Source: Sphagnum compactum
Taxonomy: Eukaryota
Length of the DNA: 64,000 bases
Direction of reading: 5' to 3'
NCBI GenBank assembly: GCA_965153455.1
Contig: OZ234493.1
Span: 16,606,213-16,670,212, forward strand
Shown here one piece after another: positions 26,501 to 64,000 of the stretch; the stretch's first letter is position 1; each line of letters begins with the position of its first letter. The position numbers and the translations under genes are program-made. Below the pieces are notes generated by a model, which was not told the DNA's origin, did not search any database, and saw nothing but the letters and a program-made list of their open reading frames with translations.

Positions 26501-27749
26501 GACAATGGTTACAACATGGATTCCTTTCAAATCTATGAATAATATGACTATCATTCCGAGTTTTAGTAATCTTCAAACCCATAATTAAAAAATTATTAAT
26601 TTCCAAGAAAATTGTTTCTAATGTCATGAAATTTAATGTAAATTTCCATGCAATACAATCTATTCAAATAGTTGCACATTACAAACATTTCAAAGTATAA
26701 CCTTTTTTTTTAAAATTGTTTACAAATATGTATGTGACCTTGGATGCAAGTAAGAATGGATACTTACAAAACCAATGAATAGGTGCCATTTTCCCAAGGC
26801 GAGATGTATTTATTTATATTAGTATCCACAACATATATTCCCCCCCCCCCCCCCCCCCCGCTAAATGTGGTGTGTTTATGTTTGTCTCATTGAAGATTCC
26901 ATTAAAGTTGCTTTGATCAATTGCATCAATAATTTTGAATAAATGATATTTCAAATTCCATGCGCCAAAACATGAACTATTGTAGCATTGAAATGGAAGT
27001 ACTTTAAATCCTATAAAAATTCTAAAAGATTTATGAAAAGTAAGTGTGATAAGCAAATGATTAAGAAGGCCAAATCCTAGTAACAACAATTGTGTTGAAT
27101 GACAACATATATTATAAAGAATTGTGAAACTTTGAGTTTATGGACCTATTGGAATACCTTTCCACATTTACAAAAAGGATAAATTAATTAAATGGACAAA
27201 TGTTACATTAAATATACATGTTGAATTTAATCATATAATGAATATACAAATCACATCCTTTTGGAAATGGAGCCAAATCTTTTCCATAGTGCGTTGAAAG
27301 GTTCTTGGATTAATGTGGCAATATATTGCAATCCTTTCTTTTTGTTCAATCCTTCCAAACCCTGCAAAACTTCTTGCATTTCCGGTCTTTGATTTGGGTC
27401 TTCCTATAAGAAACAAATGTCATAAAAGTTAGATGTTTATTATGTAATTGTTATACATTACAATCAAACCATGGCAAAATGCTCCAATAAATAGGACCAT
27501 ATGTTCATGTCTCAATTTTCATAACATAATTTGAACATGTATCCTTCAAAAAAGAGTGTAGAAACCAACTTATATTTGTATTCAACAACATAATTCTATG
27601 TTATTTGAAACTAGGATACTCAAATTGACTTTACATATCAATCATGCAAATGGTTTAAGGAATTCCAAATGAAATTGAATGTACCATTTGCATGTGCAAA
27701 CCTTCTTAAGAAGTTTTACATTCATTAATCAATCCAATTTAACTTATTT

Positions 27750-29201
27750 CACTAGTAGAAAAAGCGTGGTTTATGACTAAATTTTAGTCACAAACAACAT
27801 TTGCCACTAAAAGTTAGCCTAGTAGCAAATGACAAATTAGGAATGACGCTAGTTGCAAACAACAGATGAAATATTTGTTTTCATAAAATACACGTATGAC
27901 AATTTTACACATGTATCCAAGGATGAGTTCTTGCGACTACACTTACAACTACAATGTACAGCAATATGTTCACACCTGGTAACCTAAAAATGTAACACAT
28001 GGCATCATTTGAATTTTTTTCAATTATTCAATTAAAGCAATTTTATTGTGCCATGTGGTGGTTTAAGATTGAACGACATGACAACTTAAAATTTATAATC
28101 ATTTAAGGTTAATTTAAGGTTGGACCACTTATGATAGGCTAATTGGCACTTGAGCTAAGCCTAGGTTAGGCCACCTAACCTAATTAAATGCCTAATGTAC
28201 GTAACCTAATTTCAAGGTAAACCATTTAAAATAGGCCATGTGGCACCTAGGCTATGCCTAGGCCACCTAGCCATTGTCTAGCTTAGGTAGGTAGGTACTT
28301 AGGTCTAGGTCTAAATTGTTACAACAACATACAATTTTATTTTAAATTTAACCTATTATGTGGAGCGTATGTGATTAGCTCCTCCCATATGGCAACTAAA
28401 AAAATTTAATGTGTTTACACCAAATCAACCTATTTATATAGTTTGTAAATTTGAAATGGAAGACAAACAATATGGGATAAAATTTTATCTATAGCTCTTA
28501 GGCGCATAGTTCTAACCTAGTTGCAACTATTCCTTAAGATATACTATTACATAGCCTACCTACTAGGTAGCATAAGTTTTTACTAGGTAATAATTTAGAT
28601 AATATTTATTTGAAGTCAAAATTTAAATAGTTTAAAAATAATTATTTATTTAAAATACCTATTTAGATAGCCTCTAAATAAATATTTATAATTAAATAGG
28701 CCTATTAAGTAGCTAGTGGATACGTAGGCATGTATGTAGGTACCTAATAAATAGCTAGATAGCTAGGTAGATAAATGGTACATAGGTAGGTGTACATAGT
28801 AGGTAGGTAGGGTATATGCACCTAGTAAATAAATAGGTAGGTAGTAGGTAGGTAAGCATTTAGTAAGTAGGTATATACATATAGATAAATATGTATTATT
28901 AAATAATCTATATGTGTAGTTACTAGGTAACATATGTACCTTATGTACTTATAATGTAACTATTTTGGTTGCATGTGCAACTAAATGTATATATGATGTT
29001 GTAAAAATAAAAAGACATCATGAAAAATCAACCTATTGAAAAGATGAAATAGGTCATAATTGCAACCTAGTTGAAAAGAAGACCAAAATCCATCCAAATT
29101 TGAAAATTAGTTTCAGAGGCAACCATTCATAGTCATAAGCGACATTTAGTCGCACATAGTCACACAAGGAATGGTTGCAAATGACAAGATCTCTATTAGT
29201 G
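27750..29201. mobile_element. Non-autonomous CACTA element in the last intron of TPR-kinase copy A
   Basis: Termini CACTAGTAGA...TCTATTAGTG with TTT 3-bp TSD. Subterminal GTTGCAA/TAGTC repeats and an internal TAGG-rich low-complexity tract. Confidence 0.85.
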
Positions 29202-30662
29202 TTTCACATTGTTTCAAATATTACATTGAATCCATGATTTTAGGTTTTTGAAATTTGCTTGACCACAAATTGAATGATAAAATAAAAGATTTGGCACAAG
29301 ATTTACCTTGATGCATTAAAGGGAAATTTGCAAAAATGATTTGGCTTCATTTCGATCAAACCCAGCAATTGAATTATTAATTGCAACATCAAAAATTTGT
29401 TGAAATCCATCTTCTTCCTCTTGAACCTCTTGTACCCATTGGATAAAGTGGCGAATGTAAATTTCATTTCCATCTAAAGTCAATGGTGATCCATTCACAA
29501 GTCGAATCAACAATACTCCAAAGCTATACACATCACTTTTTGTCGATGCTTGATTTGAATGAATTTCTGGTGCCATATATCCGCTTGTTCCTGGCCTAGA
29601 AGTTGAAGCTAATGCAATCTGAATTTAAAATTTCAAAAATATCAATAATTTCAATGTGCGTTGCATGCATTGAATATACATGTCAAAATTCATAAAACCC
29701 ATACCCAATATGGTATAATACCAATAGGAAACTTGATTTTTTTTTAATCACAAAAGTCGCAATCCTTTTGTTATTACTTGTGCACACATAAAAATTTGTA
29801 ATATAAAATTTGTAATTTCATGAATTATTACATTAAGTGTTTTTCAAATATTCATTTTACATTGTGATTGTTTATCATATTTATTCCATGACCTATAATA
29901 ATGAAAATATAAAATTATTAAATTGTGGCCCACAAGAGTGTTCAAATTTGCAAAGTTCATAATTGCACTAAGATATAATGCCCATGCATTTAATCAACAA
30001 AAAAATAATGGTGGGGCACATACCACATTTTCATCCCTGCCATGTAAAATTTTTGCCAACCCAAAATCAGCCAATTTTGGGGTGTAATCCTTATCCAAGA
30101 GGATATTTCCTGGTTTGATGTCAAGATGAACAATGGTTGGATCACATTTATGATGCAAATGTGCCAATCCTCGAGCGACCCCTATAATGATGCATATTCG
30201 TTTGTCCCAATCCAAACGTTTATCTCCATCGAGCCATTTGTCAAGAGATGAATTTGAAATGTATTCATACACCAACATGTGTTTTAAACCTTTGATACAA
30301 TAGCCCAAAAGACGAACCAAATTCATATGTCGAATTGATCCCAAGGTGTTCATTTCTGATACGAAAGATTTTTTTGCACCTTCATTATGTTCACCACTCC
30401 ATTCCAAAACTTTAATCGCAATCGTAATGCCTTTCCAACAACTTTGATACACCTCACCATAGGCTCCTCTCCCTAAACTTGGTCCGAAATTCAATTCATC
30501 GTATGTAAAAGATCGAATACTTGAATTTAATGGCAACGATTCTATTATCGGTTGGTATTCATCGAACATCCATTTCAACCATTTTCGCTCTTGTTCATCA
30601 TTTGGTGTGAGATTATGAAGTTTATCAATGGCTTCCAATGCTGCTTGATATTTGTTTAAATT

Positions 30663-32090
30663 CCAATTCATGTGGGCATAAACTGTTAAAGTGAATGCAT
30701 CATTTGGTTCAAGAACATCAGCCTTGTCAAGGTCCTCCAAGGCTCCTTGATAGTCATCCAGGTTCCTTTTGATAGCTCCACGACTCCTCAAAGTGAATGC
30801 ATCATTTGGTTTAAGAACATGAGCCTTGTCAAGGTCCTCCAAGGCTCCTTGATAGTCATGCAACCTCCTTTTGACCTCTCCACGAACACTCAAAGTGAAT
30901 GCATTGTTTGGTTCAAGAACATGAGCCTTGTCAAGGTCCTCCAAGGCTCCTTGATAGTCATCCAACATTCTTTTGACATCTCCATGATGTCGCAAAATGA
31001 ATGCATCGTTTGGTTCAAGAAAATCAGCCTTGTCAAAGTCCTCCAAGGCTCCTTGATAGTCATCCAACATTCTTTTGACATCTCCACGAACACTCAAAGT
31101 GAATGCATTGTTTGGTTCAAGAACATGAGCCTTGTCAAGGTCGTCCAAGGCTCCTTGATAGTCATCCAACATTCTTTTGACATCTCCACGATGTCGCAAA
31201 GTGAATGCATTGTTTGGTTCAAGAACATCAGCCTTGTCAAGGTCCTCCAAGGCTCCTTGATTATCATCCAACATCCTCTTGACCTCTCCACGAGTTTGCA
31301 CAGTGAATGCATTGTTTGGTTCAAGAACATGAGCCTTGTCAAGGTCGTCCAAGGCTCCTTGATAGTCATGCAACATCCTTTTGACCTCTCCACGAATCCT
31401 CAAAGTGAATGCATCGTTTGGTTCAAAAACATTAGCCTTGTCAAGGTCCTCCAAGGCTCCTTAATAATCATCCAGGTTTCTTTTGATAGCTCCACGAACA
31501 CTCAAAGTGAATGCATCGTTTGGTTCAAGAACATCAGCCTTGTCAAGGTCCTCCAAGGCTCCTTGATAGTCATGCAAGATTATTTTGAAAGTTCCACGAA
31601 CACTCAAAGTGAATGCATCATTTGGTGCAAGAACATCAGAGTTGTGAAAAGCCTCTAAGGCTCCTTGATAGTCATCCAACATCGTTTTGACCTCTTCACG
31701 AATAGTCAAAGTGACTACATTGTTTGGTTCAAGAACATCAACTTTGTCAAGGTCCTCCAAGGCTCTTTGAAAGTCATGCAACATCTTTTTGACATTTCCA
31801 AAAATCTTCAAAGTGGTTACATTGCTTGGCGCAAGAACATCACCTTTGTGAAGGTCTTCCAATGCTCCTTGATACTCATCCAACATCTTTTTAACCTTTG
31901 CATGAATTCGCAAAATGAATGCATTGTTTGGTTGAAGAATATCAACCTTGTCAATGTTCTCCAAAGCTCTTTGATCGTCATTTGATATCCCTTTTACATT
32001 TTCATGAGTTGTCAAAGGGATTGCATTGTTTTGTTCAAGAACATCAACCTTGCCGAACTCCTCCAAAGCTCCTTGATAATCATTCAACAT
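30663..32090 (-). repeat. 102-bp coding tandem array, 14 TPR units
   Basis: 34-aa period AFTLxxRGxVKxMLxDYQGALEDLDKADVLEPNN, matching TPR consensus positions G8, Y17, A20, A27 and P32. Confidence 0.95.
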
Positions 32091-32823
32091 TCTTTTGACC
32101 TTTGCACAAGTTCACAAAGTGAATGCATCGTTTGGTTTAAGAACATGAACCTTGTCAAGGTCCTTGAAAGCTCTTTCATAATTGTTTAACACATGTTTGA
32201 CATATTAATAAAAATCCCTGAAATATGTGCAATGTTTGGTTTAATAACATCATGTTTGTCAAAGGCTTCAAAAGTTTTTTCATCTTCCTTGAAGACCTTT
32301 TTTTTCATGTGCACAAGTTCTTAAACTTAATGCACTTTTGGTTCATTGAAGATAAACCTTGTCAAGGTCTTTCAAGGCTACTTGATAATCTTTCAACACC
32401 TTTTTTTCACATTTTCCACGTGTGTTATTTAAATGATTCCATTGTTTAATTCATGAATAGTAGCCTTGTGAACGTCTTCCATGGTTTTTTCATAAGCATT
32501 TCATTTGTCAAGAACATGAAATAATGGAATATATATGTATATTGAACATGAAACAAAATAATTGTGATAGAGAATATTTTTTGGGGATATTCCACCAACC
32601 TATGTCACCTTACTTTCATATAGATTTGAAATGTAATCATTACTTACACAATGATTATCATACATAATTCTTATCATTGATGATTATTCCACTTAGTTTA
32701 AAGAATGTGATTTGGTAATAAACATTTCATTACATTATGCAATTTGTTCAATTCAATAAATGTAGATAAAAGATGTTGGTCCAAATCAATATATATTTTT
32801 CCATTTCTTGATGGAGCTAAGGT

Positions 32824-47492: not shown

Positions 47493-49679
47493 ATGCACAT
47501 TTTATCAGCGTGGCCTTTCTTCTTATGGCAGTCGCTGCAGGTATGTGCATGTAAAACTGTCCCGTCCAGTGTCAAATAATCCTCTCCCTCCCCTACCAAG
47601 ACCTTCAGTGGTAGCTCTTAACTCATCTCCAGACACAAGTAGGGCAGAAGAGAGCTCAAGCAATACCCCTACACAAAGTGCCTGGCAACTCACAGAAGGC
47701 AAGGCTAATTTGGGTCCCCGATTTCTGGAAGAAGATGATGAAAAGGATGTTGAAGAGATTGAAATGCCAACGTCCAACGACCCCAGTGAGATCCCAATCT
47801 GCGCGTCTGCAGCTGCTGGCATATGCCCTCGGGGTGATAACTGCCCGCAGATTCATGGTGACTTCTCCCCAACTTGTGGGAAGCATTGTTTGCATCCCTT
47901 TCGTCCATGAGAATGTGATAACCACAGGCAGCAGTGTGAACGTAACCAGAAGAAGCTTGAGGCACTTCGCAAGAGCCAAGATATTGAAGGCAGTGTCTGT
48001 CTGGAACGGGTGCTTTCAAAGCCAACAGTTGCTGAGCGGAAATTTGGATTAATGTCAGGTCATCCATTTTGTGTTGGCTGTATACGGGGTTGGCGGAGTG
48101 GTTCTCATGCACCAGGGATGGACATTGATACTGTTGTGCGGGCCTGCCCAGTTTGTCGAGTAACTTCACATTTTATAGTCCCAAGTGTTGTTTGGTACTC
48201 AAGTTCTGAAGTAAAGGAGGATATAATCAACGGCTATAAGAACAAGCTCAGGTGTGTGCATGAGACCTAAAGCTGTTTGTTCTATTTGATGTGCCTCTCA
48301 CAACTGGAGGTTTTATTACCCATCTGACATACTACTTGACAGATGGTGACCTGATACATAATTGTCCTTTAAGGTTATACTCACCCTATTATGGACCTGT
48401 CTAATGACCAGCCAGCTGGTTGGATTTTGACTTGCAAGATTGGCGCTGCCATTCTGGTAGGCTTGTCATGTGGCTGCACCCAGCTGTGACCATCAGTCTT
48501 TTATCTGGTCGGGTGCCTGATTTGTCAATATTTGTGTATATAGATTGTGCTCTGATTTGTCATAGGTGGGTGGTGTGTTGCACATTAAATGACTGGTGTA
48601 CGACCTCCTTTTCCATCCCTTCAACAATTCAAGCAATCAAGGAGATCAAGTGGACATGGAGGCATAAGGGGTGACCCCAAAGTCCTTATTGGTCTCTAGG
48701 TGTTTGCATTCTTATGTGAGAACATATAGAATGCTTTACCTTACCTCCTGATCCACAGACGTGTAAAAATACACGCACAATGTTTTTTGTAATTGAATGT
48801 TAGCGGTGTATTTGTGTGTGCGGTGATGTTGATTGTAAGTATTTTGACTATGGAAATGGAACATGTCCCTTTGGAACTAGCTGCTTCTACAAGGTAAGGA
48901 AACCAGCTTTTTTTGTTCTCTGTCCTCTGTGCAACTCAAATTGTCATGTCAGAGTGTAGCTGACCCCCATGTGACCATGTTGTCTTAACACATTTGACAA
49001 TTCCGGTTGGCATCAGATGCTCCTGCTCAGGATTTTGCATATTTAGCTGGTTTCATATGTTGAATTTCCTTCATCTGCAGCATATGTTTAGCGATGGAAG
49101 TAGGGAGGAGGTGAAGTTACGGCACCTTGGTGCTGCTGATGGGAACACTGTCATTGCCAAAAATGTTCGGTAAGCTTTTCAGGCTCCCCTTGCTGAAAGG
49201 TTTTCTCCTTTGTTTTTGACCGATCCTTAGGAGCTTTGTAGTTTTCATGAAATTATTAACATCTTTGGTCAGGATGTAAGATGACCAAAGATGTTCAAGA
49301 TCCATACATCATTTTAAGCTCAAGACTACCCTGCCGTGATTTTTTGTGGCTTCCTGACTGCAATTGTCCATGTCCTTTGATATCAGACCTTAAATGTGTT
49401 GCTGGCTGGTCAAGGGAGAAATTATTCTGGCAGATAAAGGGTTTGAGTGTTGCAACTTCTGAAAGCTTCTGCCCTCTCTAATGTTGGAGAAGGATTTCAT
49501 TCTATTCTGCATTTTGAACGTTATGTGCCACTTGTTGTAATGGTTTGCAGTTTTTGAATCCAATGTTGTTTTGATTTTCTCTTGATATGGACAGGTTATC
49601 GGACTTCCTGGACTGATTGGTTAATGCCAGGTGAACTGGATGGATGAGAATGCAAGCGGGAACCAACATGGAGACTTAG
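47493..49679 (+). pseudogene. MKRN: Makorin pseudogene, copy 2 (5'-truncated, fused in frame to an LRR exon)
   Basis: Begins at CTFYQRG with no acceptor of its own. Carries the same TGA (47908-47910), RING lesions and GG acceptor as copy 1. Additional Cys>Ser in the CCCH finger and a TGA at 49614-49616. Confidence 0.9.
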
Positions 49680-50141: not shown

Positions 50142-50257
50142 GATTATGCTCACAGCTTTCAGTTTGCGCATGACTTTGTTTTTCCCCTCAATTAGAACAT
50201 TGTTTTCTCAGTGTTCCTGTCATGTGTGTGTAGTGATTGTTGTATGATCATGTGCAG

Positions 50258-52445
50258 GTATGCACATTTTATCAGCGTGGCCTTTGTTCTTATGGCAGTC
50301 GTTGCAGGTATGAGCATGTAAAACTGTCCCGTCCAGTGTCAAATAATCCTCTCCCTCCCCTACCAAGACCTTCAGTGGTAACTCTTACCTCATCTCCAGA
50401 CACAAGTAGGGCAGAAGAGAGCTCAAGCAATACCCCTACACAAAGTGCCTGGCAACTCACAGAAGGCAAGGCTAATTTGGGTCCCCGATTTCTGGAAGAA
50501 GATGATGAAAAGGATGTTGAAGAGATTGAAATGCCAACGTCCAACGACCCCAGTGAGACCCCAATCTGCGCGTTTGCAGCTGCTGGCATATGCCCTCGGG
50601 GTGATAACTGCCCGCAGATTCATGGTGACTTCTCCCCAACTTGTGGGAAGCATTGTTTGCATCCCTTTCGTCCATGAGAATGTGATAACCACAGGCAGCA
50701 GTGTGAACGTAACCAGAAGAAGCTTGAGGCACTTCGCAAGAGCCAAGATATTGAAGGCAGTGTCTGTCTGGAACGGGTGCTTTCAAAAACAACAGTTGCT
50801 GAGCGGAAATTTGGATTAATGTCAGGTCATCCATTTCGTGTTGGCTGTATACGGGGTTGGCGGAGTGGTTCTCATGCACCAGGGATGGACATTGATACTG
50901 TTGTGCGGGCCTGCCCAGTTTGTCGAGTAACTTCACATTTTATAGTCCCAAGTGTTGTTTGGTACTCAAGTTCTGAAGTAAAGGAGGATATAATCAACGG
51001 CTATAAGAACAAGCTCAGGTGTGTGCATGAGACCTAAAGCTGTTTGTTCTATTTGATGTGCCTCTCACAACTTGAGGTTTTATTACCCATCTGACATACT
51101 ACTTGACAGATGGTGACCTGATACATAATTGTCCTTTAAGATTATACTCACCCTATTATGGACCTGTCTAATGACCAGCCAGCTGGTTGGATTTTGACTT
51201 GCAAGATTGGCGCAGCCATTCTGGTAGGCTTGTCTTGTGGCTGCACCCAGCTGTGACCATCAGTCTTTTATCTGGTCGGGTGCCTGATTTGTCAATATTT
51301 GTGTATATAGATTGTGCTCTGATTTGTCATAGGTGGGTGGTGTGTTGCACATTAAATGACTGGAATACGACCTCCTTTTCCATCCCTTCAACAATTCAAG
51401 CAAACAAGGAGATCAAGTGGACATGGAGGCATAAGGGGTGACCCCAAAGTCCTTATTGGTCTCTAGGTGTTTGCATTCTTATGTGAGAACATATAGAATG
51501 CTTTACCTTACCTCCTGATCCACAGACGTGTAAAAATACACGCACAATTTTTTTGTAATTGAATGTTAGCGGTGTATTTGTGTGTGCGGTGATGTTGATT
51601 GTAAGTATTTTGACTATGGAAATGGAACATGTCCCTTTGGAACTAGCTGCTTCTACAAGGTAAGGAAACCAGCTTTTTTTGTTCTCTGTCCTCTGTGCAA
51701 CTCAAATTGTCATGTCAGAGTGTAGCTGACCCCCATGTGACCATGTTGTCTTAACACATTTGACAATTCCGGTTGGCATCAGATGCTCCTGCTCAGGATT
51801 TTGCATATTTAGCCGGTTTCATATGTTGAATTTCCTTCATCTGCAGCATATGTTTAGAGATGGAAGTAGGGAGGAGGTGAAGTTACGGCACCTTGGTGCT
51901 GCTGATGGGAACACTGTCATTGCCAAAAATGCTCGGTAAGCTTTTCAGGCTCCCATTGCTGAAAGGTTTTCTCCTTTGTTTTTGACCGATCCTTAGGAGC
52001 TTTGTGGTTTTCATGAAATTATTAACATCTTTGGTCAGGATGTAAGATGACCAAAGATGTTCAAGATGCATACATCATTTTAAGCTCAAGACTACCCTGC
52101 CGTGATTTTTTGTGGCTTCCTGACTGCAATTGTCCATGTCCTTTGATATCAGACCTTAAATGTGTTGCTGGCAGGTCAAGGGAGAAATTATTCTGGAAGA
52201 TAAAGGGTTTGAGTGTTGCAACTTCTGAAAGCTTCTGTCCTCTCTAATGCTGGAGAAGGATTTCATTCTATTCTGCATTTTGAACGTTATGTGCCACTTG
52301 TTGTAATGGTTTGCAGTTTTTGAATCCAATGTTGTTTTGATTTTCTCTTGATATGGACAGGTTATCGGACTTCCTGGACAGATTGGTTAATGCCAGGGGA
52401 ACTGGATGGATGAGAATGCAAGCGGGAACCAACATGGAGACTTAG
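50258..52445 (+). pseudogene. MKRN: Makorin pseudogene, copy 3 (lacks first zinc-finger exon)
   Basis: Exon 50258-51018 carries the TGA at 50675-50677, the shared RING lesions and an extra HPFC>HPFR. Downstream exons are as in copy 1; terminal TAG at 52443-52445. Confidence 0.9.
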
Positions 52446-56159: not shown

Positions 56160-59100
56160 TCACATCCTTTTGGAAGTGGAGTCAAATCTTTTCCATAGTG
56201 TGTTAAAAGGTTCTTGGATTAATGTGGCAATATGTTGCAATCCTTTCTTTTTGTTCAATCCTTCCAAACGCTGCAAAACTTCTTGCATTTCCAGTCTTTG
56301 ATTTGGGTCTTCCTGTAAGAAACAAATGTCATAAAAGTTAGATGTTTATTATGTAATTGTTATACATTACAATCAAACCATGGCCAAATGCTCCAATAAA
56401 TAGGACCATATGTTCATGTCTCAATTTTCATAACATAATTTGAACATATATCCTTCAAAAAGGAATGTAGAAACCAACTTATATTTGTATTCAACAACAT
56501 AATTTTATGTTATTTGAAACTAGGATACTCAAATTGACTTTACATATCAATCATGCAAACGGTTTAAGGAATTCCAAATGAAATTGAATGTACCATTTGC
56601 ATGTGCAAACCTTCTTAAGAAGTTTTACATTCATTAATCAGCCCAATTTAACTTATTTCACTAGTAGAAAAAGCGTGGTTTATGACTAAATTTTAGTCAC
56701 AAACAACATTTGCCACTAAAAGTTAGCCTAGTAGCAAATGACAAATTAGGAACGACGCTAGTTGCAAACAACAGATGAAATATTTGTTTTCATAGAATAC
56801 ACGTATGACAATCTTACACATGTATTCAAGGATGAGTTCTTTCGACTACACTTACAACTACAATGTACAACAATATGTTCACACCTGGTAACCTAAGAAT
56901 GTAACACATGGCATCATTTGAATTTTTTTCAACTATTCAATTAAAGCAATTTTATTGTGCCATGTGGTGGCTTAAGATTCAACGACGTGACAACTTAAAA
57001 TTTATAATCATTTAACGTTAATTTAAGGTTGGACCACTTATGATAGGCTAATTGGCACTTGAGCTAAGCCTAGGTTAGGCCACCTAACCTAATTAAGTGC
57101 CTAATGTACCTAACCTGATTTCAAGGTAAACCATTTAAAATAGGCCATGTGGCACCTAGGCTATGCCTAGGCCACCTAGCCATTGTCTAGCTTAGGTAGG
57201 TAGATACTTAGGTCTAGGTCTAAATTGTTACAACAACATACAATTTTATTTTAAATTTAACCTATTATGTGGAGCGTATGTGATTAGCTCCTCCCATATG
57301 GCAACTAAAACAATTTAATGTGTTTACACCAAATCAACCTATTTATATAGTTTGTAAATTTGAAATGGAAGACAAACAGTATGGGATAAAATTTTATCTA
57401 TAGCTCTTAGTCGCATAGTTCTAACCTAGTTACAACTATTCCTTAAGATATACTATTACATTGCCTACCTACTAGGTAGCATAAGTTTTTACTAGGTAAT
57501 AATTTAGATAATATTTATTTGAAGTCAAAATTTAAATAGTTTAAAAATAATTATTTATTTAAAATACATATTTAGATAGCCTCTAAATAAATATTTATAA
57601 TTAAATAGGCCTATTAAGTAGCTAGTGGATACGTAGGTATGTATGTAGGTACCTAATAAATAGCTGGGTAGCTAGGTAGATAAATGGTACATAGGTAGGT
57701 GTACATAGTAGGTAGGTAGGGTATATGCACCTAGTAAATAAATAGGTAGGTATATGGTACATATGTGGGTACCTAGTAATTAAGTAGGTAGGTAGGTAAT
57801 TAGGTAGGTAAGCATTTAGTAGGTAGGTATATACATATAGATAAATATGTATTATTAAATAATATATATGTGTAGTTACTAGGTAACATATGTACCTTAT
57901 GTAAGTATAATGTAACTATTTTGGTTGCATGTGCAACTAAATGTATATATGATGTTGTAAAAACAAAAAGACATCATGAAAAATCAACCTATTAAAAAGA
58001 TGAAACAGGTCATAATTGCAACGTAGTTGAAAAGAAGACCAAAATCCATCCAAATTTGAAAATTAGTTTCAGAGGCAACCATTCATAGTCATAAGCGACA
58101 TTTAGTTGCACATAGTCACACAAGGAATGGTTGCAAATGACAAGATTTCTATTAGTGTTTCACATTGTTTCAAATATTACATTGAATCCATGATTTTAGG
58201 TTTTTGAAATTTGCTTGACCACAAATTGAATGACAAAATAAAAGATTTGGCATAAGATTTACCTTGATGCATTGAAGGGAAATTTGCAAAAATGATTTGG
58301 CTTCATTTCGATCAAACCCAACAATTGAATTGTTAATTGCAACATCAAAAATTTGTTGAAATCCATCTTCTTCCTCTTGAACCTTTTGTACCCATCGGAT
58401 AAATTGGTGAATGTAAATTTCATTTCCATCTAAAGTCAATGGTGATCCATTCACAAGTCGAATCAACAATACTCCAAAGCTATACACATCACTTTTTGTC
58501 GATGCTTGATTTGAAAGAATTTCTGGTGCCATATATCCGCTTGTTCCTGGCCTAGAAGTTGAAGCTAATGCAATCTGAATTTAAAATTTCAAAAATGTCA
58601 ATAATTTCAATGGGCGTTGCATGCATTGAATATACATGTCAAAACCCATACCCAATATGGTATAATACCAATAGGAAACTTGATTTTTTTTTAATCACAA
58701 AAGTCGCAATCCTTTTGTTATTACTTGTGCACACATAAAAAGAAATTTTGTAATATAAAATTTGTAATTTCATGAATTATTATATTAAGTGTTTTCCAAA
58801 TATTCATTTTACATTGTGATTGTTTATCATATTTATTCCATGACCTATAATAATGAAAATATATAATTATTAAATTGTGGCCCACAATAGTGTTCAAATT
58901 TGCAAAGTTCATAATTGCACTAAGATATAATGCCCATGCATTTCATCAACAAAAAAAGAATGGTGGGGCACATACCACATTTTCATCCCTGCCATGTAAA
59001 ATTTTTGCCAACCCAAAATCAGCCAATTTTGGGGTGTAATCCTTATCCAAAAGGATATTTCCTGGTTTGATGTCAAGATGAACAATGGTTGGATCACATT

Positions 59101-62100
59101 TATGATGCAAATATGCCAATCCTCGAGCGACCCCTATAATGATGCATATTCGTTTGTCCCAATCCAAACGTTTATCTCCATCGAGCCATTTGTCAAGAGA
59201 TGAATTTGAAATGTATTCATACACCAACATGTGTTTTAAGCCTTTGATACAATAGCCCAAAAGACGAACCAAATTCATATGTCGAATTGATCCCAAGGTG
59301 TTCATTTCTGATACGAAAGATTTTTTTGCACCTTCATTATGTTCACCACTCCATTCCAAAACTTTAATCGCAATCATAATGCCTTTCCAACAACTTTGAT
59401 ACACCTCACCATAGGCTCCTCTCCCCAAACTTGGTCCGAAATTCAATTCATCGTATGTAAAAGATCGAATACTAGAATTTAATGGCAACGATTCTATTAT
59501 CGGTTGGTATTCATCGAACATCCATTTCAACCATTTTCGCTCTTGTTCATCATATGGTGTGAGATTATGAAGTTTATCCATGGCTTCCAATGCTGCTTGA
59601 TATTTGTTTAAACTCAAATTCATGTGGGCATAAACTATTAAAGTGAATGCATTGTTTGGTTCAAGAACATGAGCCTTGTCAAGGTCCTCCAAGGCTCCTT
59701 GATAGTCATCCAAGTTCCTTTTGATAGCTCCACGAACACTCAAAGTTAATGCATCATTTGGTTCAAGAACATCAGCCTTGTCAAGGTCCTTCAAGGCTCC
59801 TTTATAGTCATGCAACATCCTTTTGACCTCTCCACGATGTCGCAAAGTGAATGCATTGTTTGGTTCAAGAACATCAACCTTGTCAAGGTCCTCCAAGGCT
59901 ACTTGATAATCATCCAACATGTATTTGACAAGTCCACGAATTCGCAAAGTGAATGCATTGTTTGGTTCAAGAACATCAGCCTTGTCAAGGTCCTCCAAGG
60001 CTCCTTGAAAGTCATGCAACATCCTTTTGGCCCCTCCACGATGTCGCAAATTGAATGCATTGTTCGGTTTAAGAACATGAGCTTTGTCAAGGTCCTCCAA
60101 GGCTCCTTGATAGTCATGCATCATCCTTTTGACCACTCCACGACCATTCAAAGTGAATGCATTGTTTGGTTCAAGAACATCAGCCTTGTCAAGGTCCTCC
60201 AAGGCTCCTTGATAGTCATGCAACATCCTTTTGACATCTCCACGATGTTGCAAAGTGAATGCATTGTTTGGTTGAAGAACATCAACCTTGTCAAGGTCCT
60301 CTAAGGCTCCTTGATAGTCATCCAGGTTCCTTTTGATAGCGCCACGATGTTGTAAAGTGAATGCATTGTTTGGTTCAAGAACATCAGCCTTGTCAAGGTC
60401 CTCCAAGGCTCCTTGATAGTCATGCAACATTTTTTTGACCTCTCCACGAGTCTTCAAAATGAATACATCATTTGGTTCAAGAACATGAGCCTTGTCAAGG
60501 TCCTCCAAGGCTCCTTGATAGTCATGCAACATCCTTTTGACATCTCCACGACTCCTTAAAGTGAATGTATTGTTTGGTTCAAGAACATCAGCCTTGTCAA
60601 GGTCCTCCAAGGCTACTTGATAGTCATGCAACATCCTTTTGACCTTTCCACGAGTTTGCAAAGTGAATGCATTGTTTGGTTCAAGAACATCAGCCTTGTG
60701 AAGGTCCTCTAGGGCTCCTTGATAGTCATCCAACATGCTTTTGACCTCTTCACGATGTCGTAAAATGAATGCATTGTTTGGTTCAAGAACATCAGCCTTG
60801 TCAAGGTCCTCCAAGGCTACTTGATAGTCATGCAACATCCTTTTGACCTTTCCACGAGTTTGCAAAGTGAATGCATTGTTTGGTTCAAGAACATCAGCCT
60901 TGTCAAGGTCCTCCAAGGCTCCTTGATAGTCATGCAACATCCTTTTGACCTCTCCACGATGTCGTAAAGTGAATGCATTGTTTGGTTCAAGAACATCAGC
61001 CTTGTCAAGGTCCTTCAAGCCTCTTTGATAGTCATGCAACATCCTTTTAACCTCTCCACGAACATTCAAAGTGAATGCATTGTTTGGTTCAAGAGCATCA
61101 GCTTCGTCAAGATCCTCCAAGGCTCCTTGATAGTCATGCAACATTTTTTTTACATCTCCACGAACATTCAAAGTGAATGCATTGTTTGGTTCAAGAACAT
61201 CAGCTTCGTCAAGATCCTCCAAGGCTCCTTGATAGTCATGCAATATTTTTTTGACCTCTCCACGAGTCTTCAAATTGAATGCATCATTTGGTTCAAGAAC
61301 ATGAGCCTTGTCAAGGTCCTCCAAGGCTCCTTGATAGTCATGCAACATCCTTTTGACATCTCCACGACTCTTCAAAGTGAATGCATTGTTTGGTTCAAGA
61401 ACATCAGCCTTGTCAAGGTCCTCCAAGGCTCTTTGATAGTCATGCAACATTTTTTTGACCTCTCCACGAGTCTTCAAAATGAATGCATCATTTGGTTCAA
61501 GAACATGAGCCATGTCAAGGTCCTCCAAGGCTCCTTGATAGTCATGCAACATCCTTTTGACATCTCCACGACTCCTCAAAGTGAATGCATCGTTTGGTTC
61601 AAGAACATCAGCCTTGTCAAGGTCCTCCAAGGCTCTTTGATAGTCATGCAACATCCTTTTGACCTCTCCACGAGTTTGCAAAGTGAATGCATTGTTTGGT
61701 TCAAGAACATCAGCCTTGTCAAGGTCCTCCAAGGCTCCTTGATAGTCTTTTAACTTCTTTTTTACAGCTCCACGAACACTCAAAGTGAATGCATTGTTTG
61801 GTTCAAGAACATGAGCTTTGTTAAGGTCCTCCAAGGCTCTTTGATAGTCATGCAAGATTATTTTGAAAGCTCCACGAACACTCAAAGTGAATGCATCATT
61901 TGGTGCAAGAACATCAGCCTTGTGAAGAGCTTCTAAAGCTCCTTGATAGTCATCCAACATCGTTTTGACCTCTCCACGAATAGTCAAAGTGACTACATTG
62001 TTTGGTTCAAGAACATCAACTTTGTCAAGGTCCTCCAAGGCTCTTTGAAAGTCATGCAACATCTTTTTGACATTTCCACAAATCTTCAAAGTGGTTACAT

Positions 62101-62368
62101 TGCTTGGCGCAAGAACATCACCCTTGTGAAGGTCCTCCAATGTTCTTTGATACTCATCCAACATCTTTTTAACCTTTGCACGAATTCGCAAAATGAATGC
62201 ATTGTTTGGTTGAAGAATATCAACCTTGTCAATGTTCTCCGAAGCTCCTTGATAGTCATTTGACATCTCTTTTACATTTTCATGAGTCTTCGAAGTGATT
62301 GCATTGTTTTGTTCAAGAACATCAACCTTGTCGAACTCCTCCAAAGCTCCTTGATAATCATTCAACAT
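56160..62368 (-). CDS. TPR-repeat (27 units) / non-RD RLK-Pelle-type Ser/Thr kinase, copy B, apparently intact, ~1285 aa
   Basis: Exons 62368-58976 (1131 codons), 58574-58263 (104 codons) and 56312-56160 (50 codons + TGA), joined by phase-0 GT-AG introns with no internal stop. Kinase motifs GRGAYG, IAIK, SFVSE, HLDIKPGNILLD, DFGLAK, GTSGYMAPE, DVYSFG and CIKEDPNQR. No signal peptide or TM segment seen. True 5' end uncertain. Confidence 0.88.
56659..58157. mobile_element. Non-autonomous CACTA element in the last intron of TPR-kinase copy B
   Basis: TIRs CACTAGTAGAAA / TTTCTATTAGTG with TTT TSD. Same insertion site as 27750-29201, so it predates the duplication. Confidence 0.88.
59615..62368 (-). 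repeat. 102-bp coding tandem array, 27 TPR units
   Basis: 34-aa period throughout. The ORF is exactly 1326 bp (13 x 102) longer than the equivalent span in copy A. Confidence 0.97.
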
Positions 62369-62775
62369 TCTTTTGACCTTTGCACGAGTTCACAAAGTGA
62401 ATGCATCGTTTGGTTTAAGAACATGAACCTTGTCAAGGTCCTTGAAAACTTTTTCATAATTGTTTAACACATGTTTGACATAATAATAAAAATCCCTAAA
62501 ATATGTGCAATGCTTGGTTTAATAACATCATGTTTGTCAAAGTGTTCAAAAGTGTTTTCATCTTCCTTGAAAACCTTTTTTTTCATATGCACAAGTTCTT
62601 AAACTTAATGCACTTTTGGTTCATTGAACATAAACCTTGTCAAGGTTTTTCAAGGCTACTTGATAATCTTTCAACACCTTTTTTTCGCGTTTTTCACATG
62701 TGTTATTTAAATGATTCCATTGTTTGATTCATGAACACTAGCCTTGTGAAGGTCATCCATCGTTTTTTCATAAGC
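62369..62775 (-). repeat. About four decayed TPR units upstream of the ORF (also 32091-32500)
   Basis: Minus strand reads YEKTMDDLHKASVHESNN, DYQVALKNLDKV and NYEKVFKDLDKVHVLKPNDAFTL*TRAKVKR, with stops and frameshifts. The in-frame TGA at 62390-62392 is shared with copy A (32112-32114). Confidence 0.8.
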
Positions 62776-64000
62776 ATTTCATTTGTCAAGAACATGAAAT
62801 AATGGAATATATATATATATATATATATATTGAACATGAAACAAAATAATTGTGATAGAGATTTTTTTGGGGGATATTCCACCAACCTATGCCACCTTAC
62901 TTTCGTATAGATTTGAAATGTAATCATTACTTACACAATGATTAGGATACATAATTCTTATCATTGATGATTATTCCACTTAGTTTAAAGAATGTTATTT
63001 GGTAATAAACATTTCATTACATTATGCAATTTGTTCAATTCAATAAATGTAGATAAAAGATGTGCGTCCACATCAATATATATTTTTCCACTTTTTGATG
63101 GAGCTAAGGTGGCAAGCATTCTTAGGCAAAATTTGATTTAACTAATAACATTGTTTCAAGGAACTTTTAATTGTTGCAAAACTATTTTGAATAGCTAGCT
63201 AATGCGAGTTCAATTTTGTTCAAATTAAACTTTTTAATATAATCCCGTTTGAAACCTAAAAATATCGTATTCATGTTTTAGTTATCCACTCATTCCATTC
63301 ATCACAACCTTCATACCTTTCACATCCTTGATTAAGAACACAAACTTAGTTTTGACGTTGCAAGACATATTGAGTTCAAGATGATAAAAGTTTGTGTGTG
63401 AAACACATACCTACAAGTTTTGAGAAGTTGCAAAAGATGTGATGTTCAAATGACCTTGATAGTTTTTGTTGTCTTTTAGCATTGGTTGCTAGCCCAATGA
63501 AATGCATGTGAACGCTGTAGCAATCAAGAAAAACACCAAGTTAACCCACCTTAATAGAAAATCATGGTAGATGAGCATTTGTGCAAATTTGAATCATTAT
63601 AGAATCGTTACTTGAGGTCAAATATTCATAACATTACTAATGCGTTCAAGGACATGGAACCAAAGTTTTGGTGTTTGAGACCTACCAAGTTTGACATAAA
63701 AGACGTGATTATATGTGAAAAGCATTTGCACGCGGTGATTGAATGATGAACACTTCTCTTGTTGTTGCGTTGAGCCACAAAGCCGTATAAACATATGTGA
63801 AGAGATTGATGGCAATAGTGCAAGAAGGGAACCAACCTCGATAAAAGTTTGTAGCAAACTCGCGATTGCAAATTTGAGCCAAGGGAGAATTAGTACATTG
63901 GATTCCTTGCATTTATGCCGGACTCATGAACATCTTGGAAGGTGTTTCTGATTAGAGGTTGAGAGAAAGGATCCAAGTGGTCCTTCTAGGATGGTGCAAA

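What the first reader, a model, noticed from the sequence alone, without database searches (positions are those of the whole stretch)
59615..62368. Hypervariable-position TPR array fused to a kinase: candidate repeat-shuffling intracellular receptor
Seen: 27 near-identical 102-bp units with an almost invariant scaffold. Variation is concentrated in a 6-nt window at TPR positions 5-6 (SV, QT, RS, KT, KS, NV, RH, QH, NG, RI) plus positions 9 (E/D/K/A/V/G/L) and 12 (R/K/S/Y/I/T). Established: helix-A residues at about these positions line the concave ligand-binding groove of TPR superhelices. Arrays with high internal conservation and a few hypervariable sites are the hallmark of fungal NLR/heterokaryon-incompatibility sensors (e.g. 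HET-E WD40 repeats; TPR- and ANK-NLRs), and are conceptually similar to TAL-effector RVDs. Inference: a plant cytoplasmic sensor-kinase with no NB-ARC domain, whose specificity is recoded by swapping repeat modules. I do not recognise this as a characterised plant gene family.
Basis: partly seen in the sequence, partly recalled or inferred. Interest (0 to 1): 0.92.

Follow-up and report, generated by a model that had tools for sequence, protein, structure and literature searches.

The report
Peat-moss hypervariable TPR-array kinase gene
This is a real, spliced peat-moss (Sphagnum) gene that joins about 27 nearly identical TPR repeats, variable at only a few groove-facing residues, to a signalling kinase; it looks like an undescribed family of fast-evolving intracellular sensors, but no function has been tested.

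Summary
A 102-bp tandem array (27.5 copies, window 59640-62442, minus strand) encodes in-frame 34-residue TPR units fused to a protein kinase.

The gene has three coding exons giving 1285 codons. It has no transmembrane segment and no NB-ARC domain. The kinase is a complete non-RD (H-L-D) RLK/Pelle-type kinase.

Variation sits at TPR positions 5, 6 and 9, and more weakly at 12 and 13. All lie in helix A, which forms the ligand-contact face in solved TPRs. Nonsynonymous change at these codons runs about three times the synonymous rate, while the scaffold is constrained.

A tandem paralog 29 kb away has about 98% identical flanks. It carries only 14 units and two stop codons, so the arrays turn over by unit and block duplication and loss.

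At least 120 related proteins were found. All 22 that carry an organism name are from Sphagnum (seven species).

Correctly spliced, strand-specific poly(A) RNA exists. However, reads at the listed diagnostic sites carry the paralog's bases, so expression of this copy is not shown.

A sensor function, and recoding by module swapping, remain inferences. I found no paper describing the family. I class it as a new variant of known kinds: high-internal-conservation repeat receptors and kinase-fusion receptors.

The parts
63411..63440 (-). 3' end of a non-coding 5' exon, ending ...CTTGTAG before a GTATGT donor. The last three bases are an in-frame TAG.
   Evidence: Loose ends of reads and contigs at 62379 (X12) and 62387 (X24, 3 reads) are the reverse complement of this stretch, with 1 mismatch. 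Sequence read.
62378..63410 (-). First intron (GT..AG). Its 3' part (about 62405-62800) holds at least three decayed TPR relic units with stops and frameshifts.
   Evidence: TRF extends the array to 62442.
58976..62377 (-). Coding exon 1, with the start codon ATG at 62368-62366. It encodes the whole TPR array, the linker and the kinase N-lobe through the DFG motif.
   Evidence: ORF; translation; donor confirmed by the RNA joint 58574|58976.
59651..62404 (-). TPR array: 27 units of 102 bp (B0-B26). B0 carries a TGA at its position 5, and translation starts at Met13 of B0. Hypervariable codons are 5, 6, 9 and (weakly) 12.
   Evidence: AlphaFold2 with alignment gave pLDDT 95.4, with helix A at residues 2-13 and helix B at 17-30 of each unit.
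59549..59650 (-). Diverged C-terminal capping TPR unit (about 62% identical to interior units, 95% to the paralog's cap).
59435..59548 (-). Family-specific linker (..WLKWMFDEYQPIIESLPLNSSIRSFTYDELNF..).
   Evidence: Conserved in Sphagnum relatives.
58976..59434 (-). Kinase domain, first part: Gly-rich loop GRGAYG, IAIK lysine, H-L-D-I-K-P-G-N catalytic loop (non-RD) and DFG.
   Evidence: Pfam Pkinase residues 979-1131, profile positions 5-156 of 263. Nearest solved kinases are BRI1, BAK1, CERK1 and IRAK.
58575..58975 (-). Intron (401 nt, GT..AG on the minus strand).
   Evidence: Joint seen in 33 reads in X24 (32 with the first mate on +, 1 on -) and in contigs of X12, X15 and X16.
58262..58574 (-). 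Coding exon 2: activation segment (..GTSGYMAPE) and kinase C-lobe.
56312..58261 (-). Intron (1950 nt, GT..AG on the minus strand).
   Evidence: Joint seen in 40 reads in X24 and in a contig of X12.
56160..56311 (-). Coding exon 3: end of the kinase (EDPNQRLEMQ..) and a conserved C-terminal tail. Stop codon at 56162-56160. The spliced product is 1285 residues.
27251..32126 (-). Tandem paralog A with the same exon structure, only 14 interior/edge units plus a cap, and two premature stops (31463-31461 in unit A6; 29318-29316 in kinase exon 2). Probably a pseudogene.

Best explanation
The finding is exon 1 of a three-coding-exon gene on the minus strand of a peat-moss (Sphagnum) genome.

What it encodes. 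The product is a soluble 1285-residue protein. It has a continuous TPR superhelix of about 27 units plus a cap, a family-specific linker of about 40 residues, and a complete non-RD (H-L-D) kinase of the plant RLK/Pelle (IRAK-like) type. It belongs to a multigene family found, among named sources, only in Sphagnum.

Likely mechanism. The concave groove of the TPR superhelix is lined by the hypervariable helix-A residues 5, 6 and 9, and to a lesser degree 12 and 13. I propose that this groove binds a fast-changing ligand in the cytoplasm. Candidates are a microbe-derived or other non-self protein, or a host protein guarded against one. Occupancy would then switch the kinase, either by releasing autoinhibition or by bringing kinases together, and so start phosphorylation signalling.

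How new specificities arise. Point substitutions favoured at the groove positions contribute, as do duplication, loss and reshuffling of whole units and blocks of units.

Shown here: gene structure; splicing and transcription of this gene type; the TPR fold; the location and excess of variation; array turnover between paralogs; the family's distribution.

Inferred: ligand binding, the immune or recognition role, and the activation step.
For: Architecture:
- TPR_2 E = 2e-66, Pkinase E = 2e-30, no other domain.
- Spliced CDS of 1285 codons with intact Gly-loop, Lys, HxD-N, DFG and APE motifs.
- No transmembrane segment.

Fold:
- The AlphaFold2 model with a 34-row alignment has pLDDT 95.4 and pTM 0.81, with helix A at 2-13 and helix B at 17-30 of each unit.
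- The best Foldseek matches are consensus TPR superhelices (9qhb, 8chy) and the O-GlcNAc transferase TPR superhelix (1w3b, 6eou; TM-score on query 0.77-0.78).

Variable sites on the binding face:
- Alignment to consensus TPR puts our positions 5, 6, 9 and 12 on CTPR Y5, N6, N9 and Y12.
[quoted passage not shown] They also state that HOP TPR1 and TPR2A bind their ligands with positions 2, 5, 6, 9, 12 and 13.

Selection:
- 45 of 112 nonsynonymous changes fall in 4 of 34 codons (p = 2e-14).
- Nonsynonymous changes per site at those codons are 4.73, against 1.60 synonymous changes per site over the whole unit (binomial p = 1.8e-6).
- The scaffold ratio is about 0.6 (p = 0.009).
- Among 27 unit pairs differing by 6 bases or fewer, 50 of 132 differences lie in the four codons (expected 12%).
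- The same positions top the entropy ranking in 105 unique units from 24 relatives.

Array turnover:
- The two paralogs have flanks 97.9-98.2% identical but 27 against 14 units.
- Only the edge units and the cap are colinear.
- B15 and B17 are identical, and block B7-B9 recurs as B17-B19.

Family features typical of receptor families:
- The 120 listed relatives are 56-92% identical in linker plus kinase. The 22 that carry an organism name are all Sphagnum (7 species), on several chromosomes by locus tag.
- There is tandem duplication with a pseudogenised copy.
- None of the 26 relatives read has Arg before the catalytic Asp. The nearest kinases outside mosses are non-RD (H-C-D) lectin receptor kinases.

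Transcription: strand-specific poly(A) reads cover the kinase exons at 17-72x against 0.5-3.5x in introns. Both introns are removed at GT..AG (33 and 40 reads). The first is also seen in contigs of three further runs, X12, X15 and X16 (X12's RNA label is a guess), and the second in a contig of X12 only.
Against: - No functional datum exists for any member.
- Expression of this copy is not shown. In the poly(A) run, all reads at the five listed diagnostic sites carry the paralog-A base (32 of 32, 17 of 17, 33 of 33, 56 of 56, 67 of 67). Array depth at 97% likeness is only 0-4x.
- The neighbour copy is dead (two stops). The A-against-B pN/pS over cap plus kinase is 0.86, so this pair shows no constraint on the kinase.
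- Copy B has three private replacements at family-conserved columns, including Pro to Leu in the DPxxRP motif.
- Scaffold constraint is only moderate (ratio about 0.6).
- Codon 12 shows 7 nonsynonymous against 5 synonymous changes.
- The counts come from parsimony on a tree of 102-base units that recombine, which can inflate counts at polymorphic sites.
- The orientation of the side chains could not be measured, because no coordinates are returned. It rests on numbering and the literature.
- Variation between individuals was not testable.
- 3 of 26 relatives have Asn in place of the catalytic-loop Lys, so some members may be pseudokinases.
Confidence: 0.5

Rival explanations
1. An ordinary scaffold or adaptor kinase. 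The TPR array is a structural spacer or binds a conserved partner such as a chaperone. The variable positions are simply exposed, unconstrained sites in a recently expanded repeat.
For: The TPR fold is generic. Exposed helix-A positions are the most variable across all TPRs. Scaffold constraint is only moderate.
Against: The nonsynonymous rate at codons 5, 6 and 9 exceeds the synonymous rate about threefold (p = 1.8e-6), which is more than relaxation predicts. Convex-face exposed positions stay conserved. Unit number differs twofold between 98%-identical paralogs. The family is genus-restricted and multi-copy.
Confidence: 0.2
2. This particular copy is a young, non-functional duplicate in a birth-and-death family. 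Its long open frame persists only because too little time has passed, and its extra units are neutral expansion.
For: The neighbour 29 kb away has two stops. A-against-B pN/pS is 0.86. Copy B has private changes at conserved columns, including P336L. No read at the listed diagnostic sites carries B's base in the poly(A) run.
Against: The 1285 codons are open and all splice sites and catalytic motifs are intact. In other runs, some diagnostic sites show B's base: at 59376, 0 of 1033 (X12) and 0 of 122 (X15) of the summed contig depth carry the other letter, and 58516 is mixed. This rival concerns one copy only and does not explain the family-wide pattern.
Confidence: 0.2
3. A modular reader of a linear polymer, in the manner of TALE, PPR or PUF proteins. 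Each unit's variable residues would specify one element of an extended peptide or nucleic acid threaded through the superhelix, and the kinase would report binding.
For: The units are 34 residues with a di-residue hotspot. A sequence search of solved structures returns TAL effector repeat arrays at E = 8e-27 to 1e-16, after engineered TPRs. R7, K11 and R/K12 are conserved basic residues in helix A. The array would make more than three superhelical turns, assuming 8 units per turn as in the 8-repeat consensus TPR superhelix (entry title; the rest is inference).
Against: The TALE match is a periodic alignment of about 28% identity. It puts our invariant R7-G8, not the variable pair, on the TALE variable di-residue. 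Our hotspot lies inside helix A, not in a loop. Pfam calls TPR, not PPR. The units carry a net negative charge (my count). No binding test was done.
Confidence: 0.06
4. An assembly artefact. The array length and unit order would be mis-assembled from collapsed or expanded repeat reads.
For: Arrays of 102-bp units at 85-100% identity are hard to assemble. No short-read contig spans the array. No run holds half or more of the stretch's sampled words.
Against: The frame is open through all 27 units with no indel (0% indels). The edge units are colinear with the paralog. The family is seen independently in seven named species and in many metagenome contigs.
Confidence: 0.04

Closest known systems
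Fungal NLR (STAND) receptors with highly internally conserved TPR, ANK or WD repeats (HET-E/HET-D; Podospora Pa_2_10340 NB-ARC-TPR)
   Same: Both have tandem, highly similar repeats with a few sites under positive selection that map to the concave binding face, changes in repeat number, and concerted evolution or shuffling (passages of PMC4986451; here).
   Different: There is no NB-ARC or NACHT module, and the output is a kinase. The host is a land plant. The array sits at the N-terminus. Mean unit identity of 77.7% is below that paper's 85% cut-off. Variation between individuals is untested here.
Cereal kinase-fusion and tandem-kinase resistance proteins (e.g. Sr43, WTK4, Pm13)
   Same: Both are intracellular, with no NB-ARC and no transmembrane segment, and join a kinase to an extra domain thought to bind the pathogen factor (titles and abstracts in the listing only; the rest is recalled).
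   Different: Those carry single integrated domains or a second kinase, not a hypervariable repeat array. They are angiosperm genes with proven resistance function. No function is known here.
Non-RD receptor kinases of the RLK/Pelle family (Xa21-, FLS2- and ZmPK1-like lectin receptor kinases)
   Same: The kinase type matches. The best named hits outside mosses are ZmPK1-like receptor kinases at about 43-49% identity with H-C-D catalytic loops. The nearest solved kinases are BRI1, BAK1, CERK1 and IRAK1/4. The link between non-RD kinases and innate immune receptors is recalled, not tested.
   Different: Those have a signal peptide, an extracellular domain and a membrane span. This protein has none, and carries a cytoplasmic TPR array instead.
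BSK kinases (RLCK-XII), the known plant receptor-like cytoplasmic kinases with TPRs
   Same: Both combine an RLK/Pelle-type kinase with TPRs in one soluble protein (listing; domain order recalled).
   Different: In BSK the domain order is reversed (kinase first, then a few TPRs), the TPRs are not hypervariable, and the family is conserved across land plants. The kinase here is closer to lectin and LRR receptor kinases.
Ectocarpus NB-ARC-TPR and LRR-ROCO candidate receptors
   Same: Both have repeat modules that are shuffled and carry positively selected sites; those mapped there, in the LRR domain, lie on the concave face (TPR exons were not mapped). Both occur in clustered, birth-and-death families (passages of PMC3341825).
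   Different: There, each repeat is a separate exon, the TPR units are 42 residues, and the partner is an NB-ARC or ROCO GTPase. Here the whole array is one exon and the partner is a kinase.
TAL effector repeat arrays
   Same: Both have 34-residue tandem helical-hairpin units, near-identical apart from a di-residue hotspot. They are detectable by sequence search.
   Different: The hotspot is in helix A rather than in the inter-helix loop. The alignment offsets the two hotspots. There is no evidence of DNA binding. TAL effectors are bacterial effectors, whereas this is a plant kinase.

Membership tests
Tetratricopeptide repeat (TPR) superhelix | 34-residue helix-turn-helix units matching the TPR profiles, with small or conserved residues at positions 8, 20, 27 and Pro32 | tested here: met
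   TPR_2 E = 2.2e-66 and TPR_1 E = 2.6e-58. G8, A20, A27 and P32 are nearly invariant. L4, R7 and K11 replace the usual W4, L7 and Y11.
Tetratricopeptide repeat (TPR) superhelix | Continuous two-helix repeat solenoid | tested here: met
   The AlphaFold2 model has pLDDT 95.4 with 18 helices in A/B pairs. Foldseek best matches are the CTPR superhelices and the OGT TPR domain. The single-sequence model was poor (pLDDT 56).
Tetratricopeptide repeat (TPR) superhelix | Variable residues face the concave groove | tested here: inconclusive
   Positions 5, 6, 9 and 12 lie in helix A. They align to CTPR positions 5, 6, 9 and 12, which the literature places on the concave, ligand-contact face. No coordinates were available to measure orientation.
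Active eukaryotic protein kinase | Gly-rich loop, VAIK Lys, catalytic HxD..N, DFG, APE | tested here: met
   GRGAYG, IAIK, HLDIKPGN, DFG and MAPE were read. The Pkinase profile is covered over 5-156 and 164-241 of 263 positions. Activity itself was not tested.
Non-RD kinase class | No Arg immediately before the catalytic Asp | tested here: met
   The window gene and paralog A read H-L-D. Of 26 relatives, 24 read H-L-D, 1 H-I-D and 1 R-L-D (the script pattern mis-hit two of them, which I then read by eye).
RLK/Pelle (IRAK-like) kinase family | Kinase domain groups with plant receptor-like kinases and IRAKs | tested here: inconclusive
   The best named hits are plant receptor kinases. The best solved relatives are BRI1, BAK1, CERK1, SYMRK and IRAK1/4. 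No phylogeny was built and the subfamily was not assigned.
NLR / STAND receptors | Central NB-ARC or NACHT nucleotide-binding domain | tested here: not met
   Pfam finds no such hit in the 1140-residue frame or in the exon-2 frame it scanned. Exon 3 was not scanned; it encodes only the end of the kinase and a short tail conserved in the family. An in-frame TAG closes the 5' exon.
High-internal-conservation repeat receptors (as defined for fungal NLRs) | Repeats more than 85% identical over at least 100 residues | tested here: not met
   Mean pairwise amino-acid identity of interior units is 77.7% (scaffold positions alone 84.7%). Individual pairs reach 100%.
High-internal-conservation repeat receptors (as defined for fungal NLRs) | Positive diversifying selection at a few repeat positions | tested here: met
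   A rough parsimony count gives a ratio of about 3 at codons 5, 6, 9 and 12 taken together (p = 1.8e-6). Codon 12 alone is not convincing. No recombination-aware codon model was run.
High-internal-conservation repeat receptors (as defined for fungal NLRs) | Repeat-number polymorphism between individuals | not testable with these tools
   Only paralogs could be compared (27 against 14 units). Short-read contigs do not span arrays. The in-register array joints in RNA are explained by paralog-like sequence (X24) or by unknown other arrays (X12, X15, X16).
BSK (RLCK-XII) | N-terminal kinase followed by C-terminal TPRs | tested here: not met
   The order here is TPR array first, then kinase. The BSK domain order is recalled.
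TAL effector repeats | Variable di-residue at positions 12-13 in the loop between the two helices | tested here: not met
   The periodic alignment puts TALE positions 12-13 on our invariant R7-G8. Our variable pair lies inside helix A.

The most novel reading that the evidence does not exclude
The array could be a programmable reader. Each 34-residue unit would use its variable helix-A residues (5, 6, 9, 12) to recognise one element of an extended ligand (a peptide or nucleic-acid chain) lying in the lumen of a three-turn TPR superhelix. The order of units would then spell out the target, as in TALE, PPR and PUF proteins, and unit shuffling would rewrite it. The fused non-RD kinase would turn binding into a phosphorylation signal. 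This would be a one-unit-one-element code coupled directly to a kinase in a plant.
Probability: 0.07. Interest if true: 0.9.

Novelty: new variant of a known kind. Interest (0 to 1): 0.62.

Why it matters
Intracellular recognition in plants is usually attributed to NLRs, and more recently to kinase-fusion proteins in cereals. Repeat arrays that stay nearly identical while a few surface residues diversify are a hallmark of fungal NLRs. They were reported as rare in green plants: 0.4% of repeats in Viridiplantae, according to a passage of PMC4986451.

If the moss family described here is confirmed, it would show three things:
- The same evolutionary device arose in a land plant.
- It can be wired to a non-RD receptor-type kinase rather than to a nucleotide-binding switch.
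- It has expanded in Sphagnum, a genus whose interactions with microbes underpin peatland carbon storage.

It would also give a compact, soluble system (array plus kinase) for asking how repeat receptors gain new specificities. If the groove code can be read, it could serve as a natural scaffold for engineered binders with a built-in signalling output.

If the family turns out to be a scaffold kinase with loosely constrained surface residues, it is a lineage-specific curiosity.

Tried and rejected
1. The whole genome of the window is not held, so copy number in this genome could not be counted.
3. Single-sequence AlphaFold2 gave a poor model (pLDDT 56, with helices fused) and was discarded. 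The alignment-based model replaced it.
4. The representative search was dominated by multi-kinase proteins. Its top hit, P0360, is a tandemly repeated kinase fragment unrelated to this family. Only 7 of the 150 listed are 62% or more identical to the query, so it added little beyond.
5. The in-register array joints in RNA (15, 18 and 20 units skipped, and one going back 13 units) were considered as evidence of polymorphism between individuals. They were rejected as such. The X24 joints match paralog-A-like sequence with 2 mismatches. The X12, X15 and X16 joints match neither copy and may come from other paralogs or species.
6. The TAL-effector sequence hits were considered as a sign of homology or DNA binding. 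I judged them to be a periodic alignment with offset hotspots.
7. Rfam found nothing in the window.
8. Pfam on ten other open frames of the window gave only a CCCH zinc finger.
9. Literature: four searches and two follow-up readings by term search found no description of a Sphagnum or moss TPR-RLK/Pelle kinase family.
10. DNA runs held at most 0.48 of the sampled words.


Full report

Yes. Tandem Repeats Finder reports a single array at 59640-62442 with period 102, 27.5 copies, 85% matches and no indels. It lies inside a 1140-codon open frame on the minus strand, 62368..58946. Translated in register, the frame reads as 34-residue units. There are 26 full units (B1-B26) and a first unit (B0) that carries a TGA at its position 5. 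The start codon is the Met at position 13 of B0. A diverged capping unit follows at 59549-59650.

The numbering is that of Pfam TPR_1: residues 738-770 match profile positions 2-34, and unit 22 starts at residue 737.

**2. Is the variation concentrated, and is it more than relaxed constraint?**

Among the 22 interior units, nonsynonymous diversity per site is 0.50, 0.64, 0.46 and 0.32 at codons 5, 6, 9 and 12. The mean at the other 30 codons is 0.069.

I then built a FastTree of the 30 unique interior units of both paralogs and counted changes by parsimony. This gave 112 nonsynonymous and 34 synonymous changes:
- 45 of the 112 nonsynonymous changes (40%) fall at the four codons, against 12% expected (p = 2e-14).
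- Per site, the nonsynonymous count there (4.73) is about three times the synonymous count over the whole unit (1.60; binomial p = 1.8e-6).
- The remaining codons give a ratio of about 0.6 (p = 0.009).

By codon, the nonsynonymous and synonymous counts are:

| Codon | Nonsynonymous | Synonymous |
|---|---|---|
| 6 | 14 | 0 |
| 5 | 12.5 | 1.5 |
| 9 | 11.7 | 0.3 |
| 12 | 7 | 5 |

Codon 12 is therefore unconvincing on its own.

Among the 27 unit pairs that differ by six bases or fewer, 50 of 132 differences lie in the four codons. These pairs are not independent.

There are caveats. The units are short and recombine. The tree uses the same sites that are being counted. No recombination-aware codon model was run.

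'Near-identical' is somewhat generous. Interior units average 87.7% nucleotide and 77.7% amino-acid identity, with the scaffold at 84.7% and the four variable positions at 25%.

**3. The gene**

The frame continues past the array into a linker and the N-lobe of a protein kinase, up to the DFG motif (Pfam Pkinase E = 2e-30). A GT donor follows ..GRDENV.

RNA evidence fixes the structure:
- In a stranded poly(A) run (X24), 33 reads join 58574 to 58976 and 40 reads join 56311 to 58262. Both introns are GT..AG on the minus strand.
- The first joint is also present in contigs of three further runs (X12, X15, X16), and the second in a contig of X12.
- Read pairs are almost all in one orientation, which fits a minus-strand RNA in a usual stranded library.
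- Depth is 17-72x over the kinase exons and 0.5-3.5x in the introns.
- Loose ends at 62379 (X12) and 62387 (X24, 3 reads) are the reverse complement of window 63411-63440. This indicates a 5' exon ending ..CTTGTAG before a GTATGT donor, spliced to about 62377. That exon's last three bases are an in-frame TAG, so ATG 62368 is the start and no further domain can be fused upstream.

The spliced CDS (62368-58976, 58574-58262, 56311-56160) gives 1285 residues with a complete kinase. The motifs are GRGAYG, IAIK, HLDIKPGN, DFG and GYMAPE. There is no hydrophobic segment; the maximum 19-residue hydropathy mean is 1.31. The catalytic loop reads H-L-D, which makes this a non-RD kinase.

Upstream of the start, at least three decayed TPR units lie in what is now the first intron.

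**4. Fold**

A single-sequence AlphaFold2 run failed (pLDDT 56). With a 34-row alignment of window segments and relatives, the nine-unit model reached pLDDT 95.4 and pTM 0.81. Helix A spans positions 2-13 and helix B spans 17-30 of every unit.

Foldseek places the model with consensus TPR superhelices (9qhb, 8chy), the O-GlcNAc transferase TPR superhelix (1w3b, 6eou; TM-score on query 0.77-0.78), SPINDLY, BBS4 and APC subunits.

The sequence alignment to consensus TPR puts our positions 5, 6, 9 and 12 on CTPR Y5, N6, N9 and Y12. [quoted passage not shown] They also state that HOP TPR1 and TPR2A contact their peptides with positions 2, 5, 6, 9, 12 and 13.

The variable residues are thus in helix A, at positions known to form the binding groove. 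I could not measure their orientation in the model because no coordinates are returned.

**5. A tandem paralog and array turnover**

A second copy lies at 27.2-32.1 kb on the same strand. The two copies sit in a segmental duplication of about 29 kb whose flanks are 97.9-98.2% identical. Yet copy A has 14.5 repeat copies against 27.5 in copy B.

Units 0-5 and the cap are colinear between the copies (91-99% identical). The interiors cannot be matched one to one.

Within B:
- Units 15 and 17 are identical.
- Units 8, 10 and 18 are closely similar, as are units 9 and 19.
- The block B7-B9 recurs as B17-B19, a run of three units at 95% identity or more at a lag of ten units.

Copy A carries two premature stops: Q18 of unit A6 at 31463-31461, and LQISL*CIK in kinase exon 2 at 29318-29316. 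It is probably a pseudogene.

Over cap, linker and kinase, A against B gives pN/pS of 0.86. Copy B differs from family-conserved columns at 12 of 217 positions. Nine of these are shared with A. Three are private to B: one in the cap, Q285R, and Pro to Leu in the DPxxRP motif.

**6. Which copy is transcribed?**

In X24, every read at the five listed diagnostic sites carries the base of copy A (32 of 32, 17 of 17, 33 of 33, 56 of 56, 67 of 67). B's array is covered at only 0-4x at 97% likeness.

In the other runs the pattern is mosaic. At 59376 they show B's base, at 58516 they are mixed, and at 59113 and 58332 they show A's base. These may be other genotypes or species.

Transcription and splicing of this gene type are therefore shown. 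Expression of copy B as assembled is not.

The in-register joints inside the array seen in RNA are explained by A-like sequence in X24. In X12, X15 and X16 they are explained by neither copy. I do not count them as evidence of polymorphism between individuals.

**7. Family and host**

A search with the kinase region gives as best hits a Sphagnum balticum protein (73% identity) and Sphagnum fallax BDL97_05G115300 (67%). The latter is a 722-residue protein with ten near-identical TPR units and the same kinase. All other named hits are angiosperm or fern receptor kinases at about 50% identity or less.

Among shorter proteins, the 120 listed are 56-92% identical over linker plus kinase:
- 22 carry an organism name, and all 22 are Sphagnum (seven species). 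Locus tags place them on several chromosomes.
- By my count of the table, 51 of the 120 have TPR families on record.
- The rest come from unnamed metagenome or metatranscriptome contigs.

In 105 unique units cut from 24 of 26 relatives, the highest entropies are at positions 6, 5, 9, 15, 12 and 13. The hotspot is therefore a family property.

None of the 26 has Arg before the catalytic Asp: 24 read H-L-D, one H-I-D and one R-L-D. Three have Asn in place of the catalytic-loop Lys.

Other mosses have different combinations:
- Ceratodon proteins join diverged TPRs of the same subtype to an HRD kinase of another class.
- Other Ceratodon-type proteins join an H-L-D kinase 47-51% identical to ours to an N-terminal region with no Pfam hit.
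- A Botryococcus NB-ARC protein carries near-identical TPRs of the same subtype.

The window is thus most likely from a Sphagnum genome. I did not try to determine the species.

**8. What it most likely does**

The anatomy is a long TPR superhelix whose groove residues diversify faster than silent sites, placed directly in front of a non-RD receptor-type kinase. The gene sits in a genus-restricted, dispersed and tandemly duplicating family with dead copies. This matches what is expected of a cytoplasmic recognition receptor.

I propose that the groove binds a fast-changing ligand and that binding switches the kinase. Ligand binding, the immune or symbiont-recognition role and the switching step are all inferences.

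The main rivals are:
- An ordinary scaffold kinase whose exposed residues drift.
- A young dead duplicate (this applies to this copy only).
- A TALE/PPR-like reader of a linear polymer (a bold reading).
- Mis-assembly.

**9. Comparison with known systems**

In evolutionary behaviour, the closest match is the fungal NLRs with highly conserved TPR, ANK or WD repeats (passages of PMC4986451) and the Ectocarpus NB-ARC-TPR and LRR-ROCO genes (passages of PMC3341825). This gene has no nucleotide-binding domain, so it is not an NLR.

In architecture, it resembles the cereal kinase-fusion and tandem-kinase resistance proteins (listing only). Those have no hypervariable repeat array.

The only plant cytoplasmic receptor-like kinases with TPRs that I know of are the BSKs. 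They have the opposite domain order (recalled; listing).

The sequence search of solved structures also returned TAL effector repeat arrays at E = 8e-27 to 1e-16. That alignment is periodic, about 28% identical, and offsets the two hotspots. I treat it as a resemblance between 34-residue helical hairpins.

**10. Novelty and verdict**

Four full-text searches and two follow-up readings found no description of this family. Supplementary files could not be seen.

I rate it a new variant of known kinds. It is real and of clear interest to people working on the evolution of plant immunity and on repeat receptors. Its function is entirely untested, and this particular copy has not been shown to be expressed.

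Noticed in passing
window 27251-32126 (minus strand): A tandem paralog of the gene with 14 instead of 27 units. It has two premature stop codons (31463-31461 and 29318-29316), yet poly(A) reads at the listed diagnostic sites carry its bases.
   Followed up: yes
window 62405-62800 (minus strand): At least three decayed TPR relic units with stops and frameshifts lie upstream of the start codon, in what RNA evidence indicates is the first intron. The array seems to erode at its 5' edge.
   Followed up: partly
window 59651-60670 (query): A sequence search of solved structures returns TAL effector repeat arrays (AvrBs3, dHax3 and others) at E = 8e-27 to 1e-16, just after engineered consensus TPRs. 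The alignment is periodic, and the TALE variable di-residue falls on the invariant R7-G8 here.
   Followed up: partly
protein P0001 (Sphagnum balticum): A predicted protein joins leucine-rich repeats (including types found in resistance proteins) and a single relic TPR to the same linker and kinase (73% identical). It is either an alternative sensor domain on this kinase or a fused gene model.
   Followed up: partly
proteins P0121, P0123, P0129: The same TPR subtype (..PNxAFTLxxRGxxK..) occurs behind a kinase in an unnamed protein (P0121), between two kinase domains in a Ceratodon protein (P0123; read by eye, not scanned), and as near-identical repeats behind an NB-ARC domain in Botryococcus braunii.
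   Followed up: no
proteins P0261, P0265, P0271: Three of 26 family members have Asn instead of Lys in the catalytic loop (HLDINPQN). They may be pseudokinases.
   Followed up: no
window 59750-60304, 60968-61753 and 30690-31658 (plus strand): Long antisense open frames (184-322 codons) run through both arrays. They are most simply a by-product of a unit that has no stop in that antisense frame.
   Followed up: no
window 21294-22094, 47362-48270, 50237-51037: Three copies of a similar set of overlapping open frames. The one scanned (47362-47910) has CCCH zinc-finger matches. They are part of repeated DNA within and beside the segmental duplication.
   Followed up: partly
window 38609-39345: A 184-bp tandem repeat, 4.0 copies, 98% matches, in a G+C-richer stretch between the two gene copies.
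   Followed up: no
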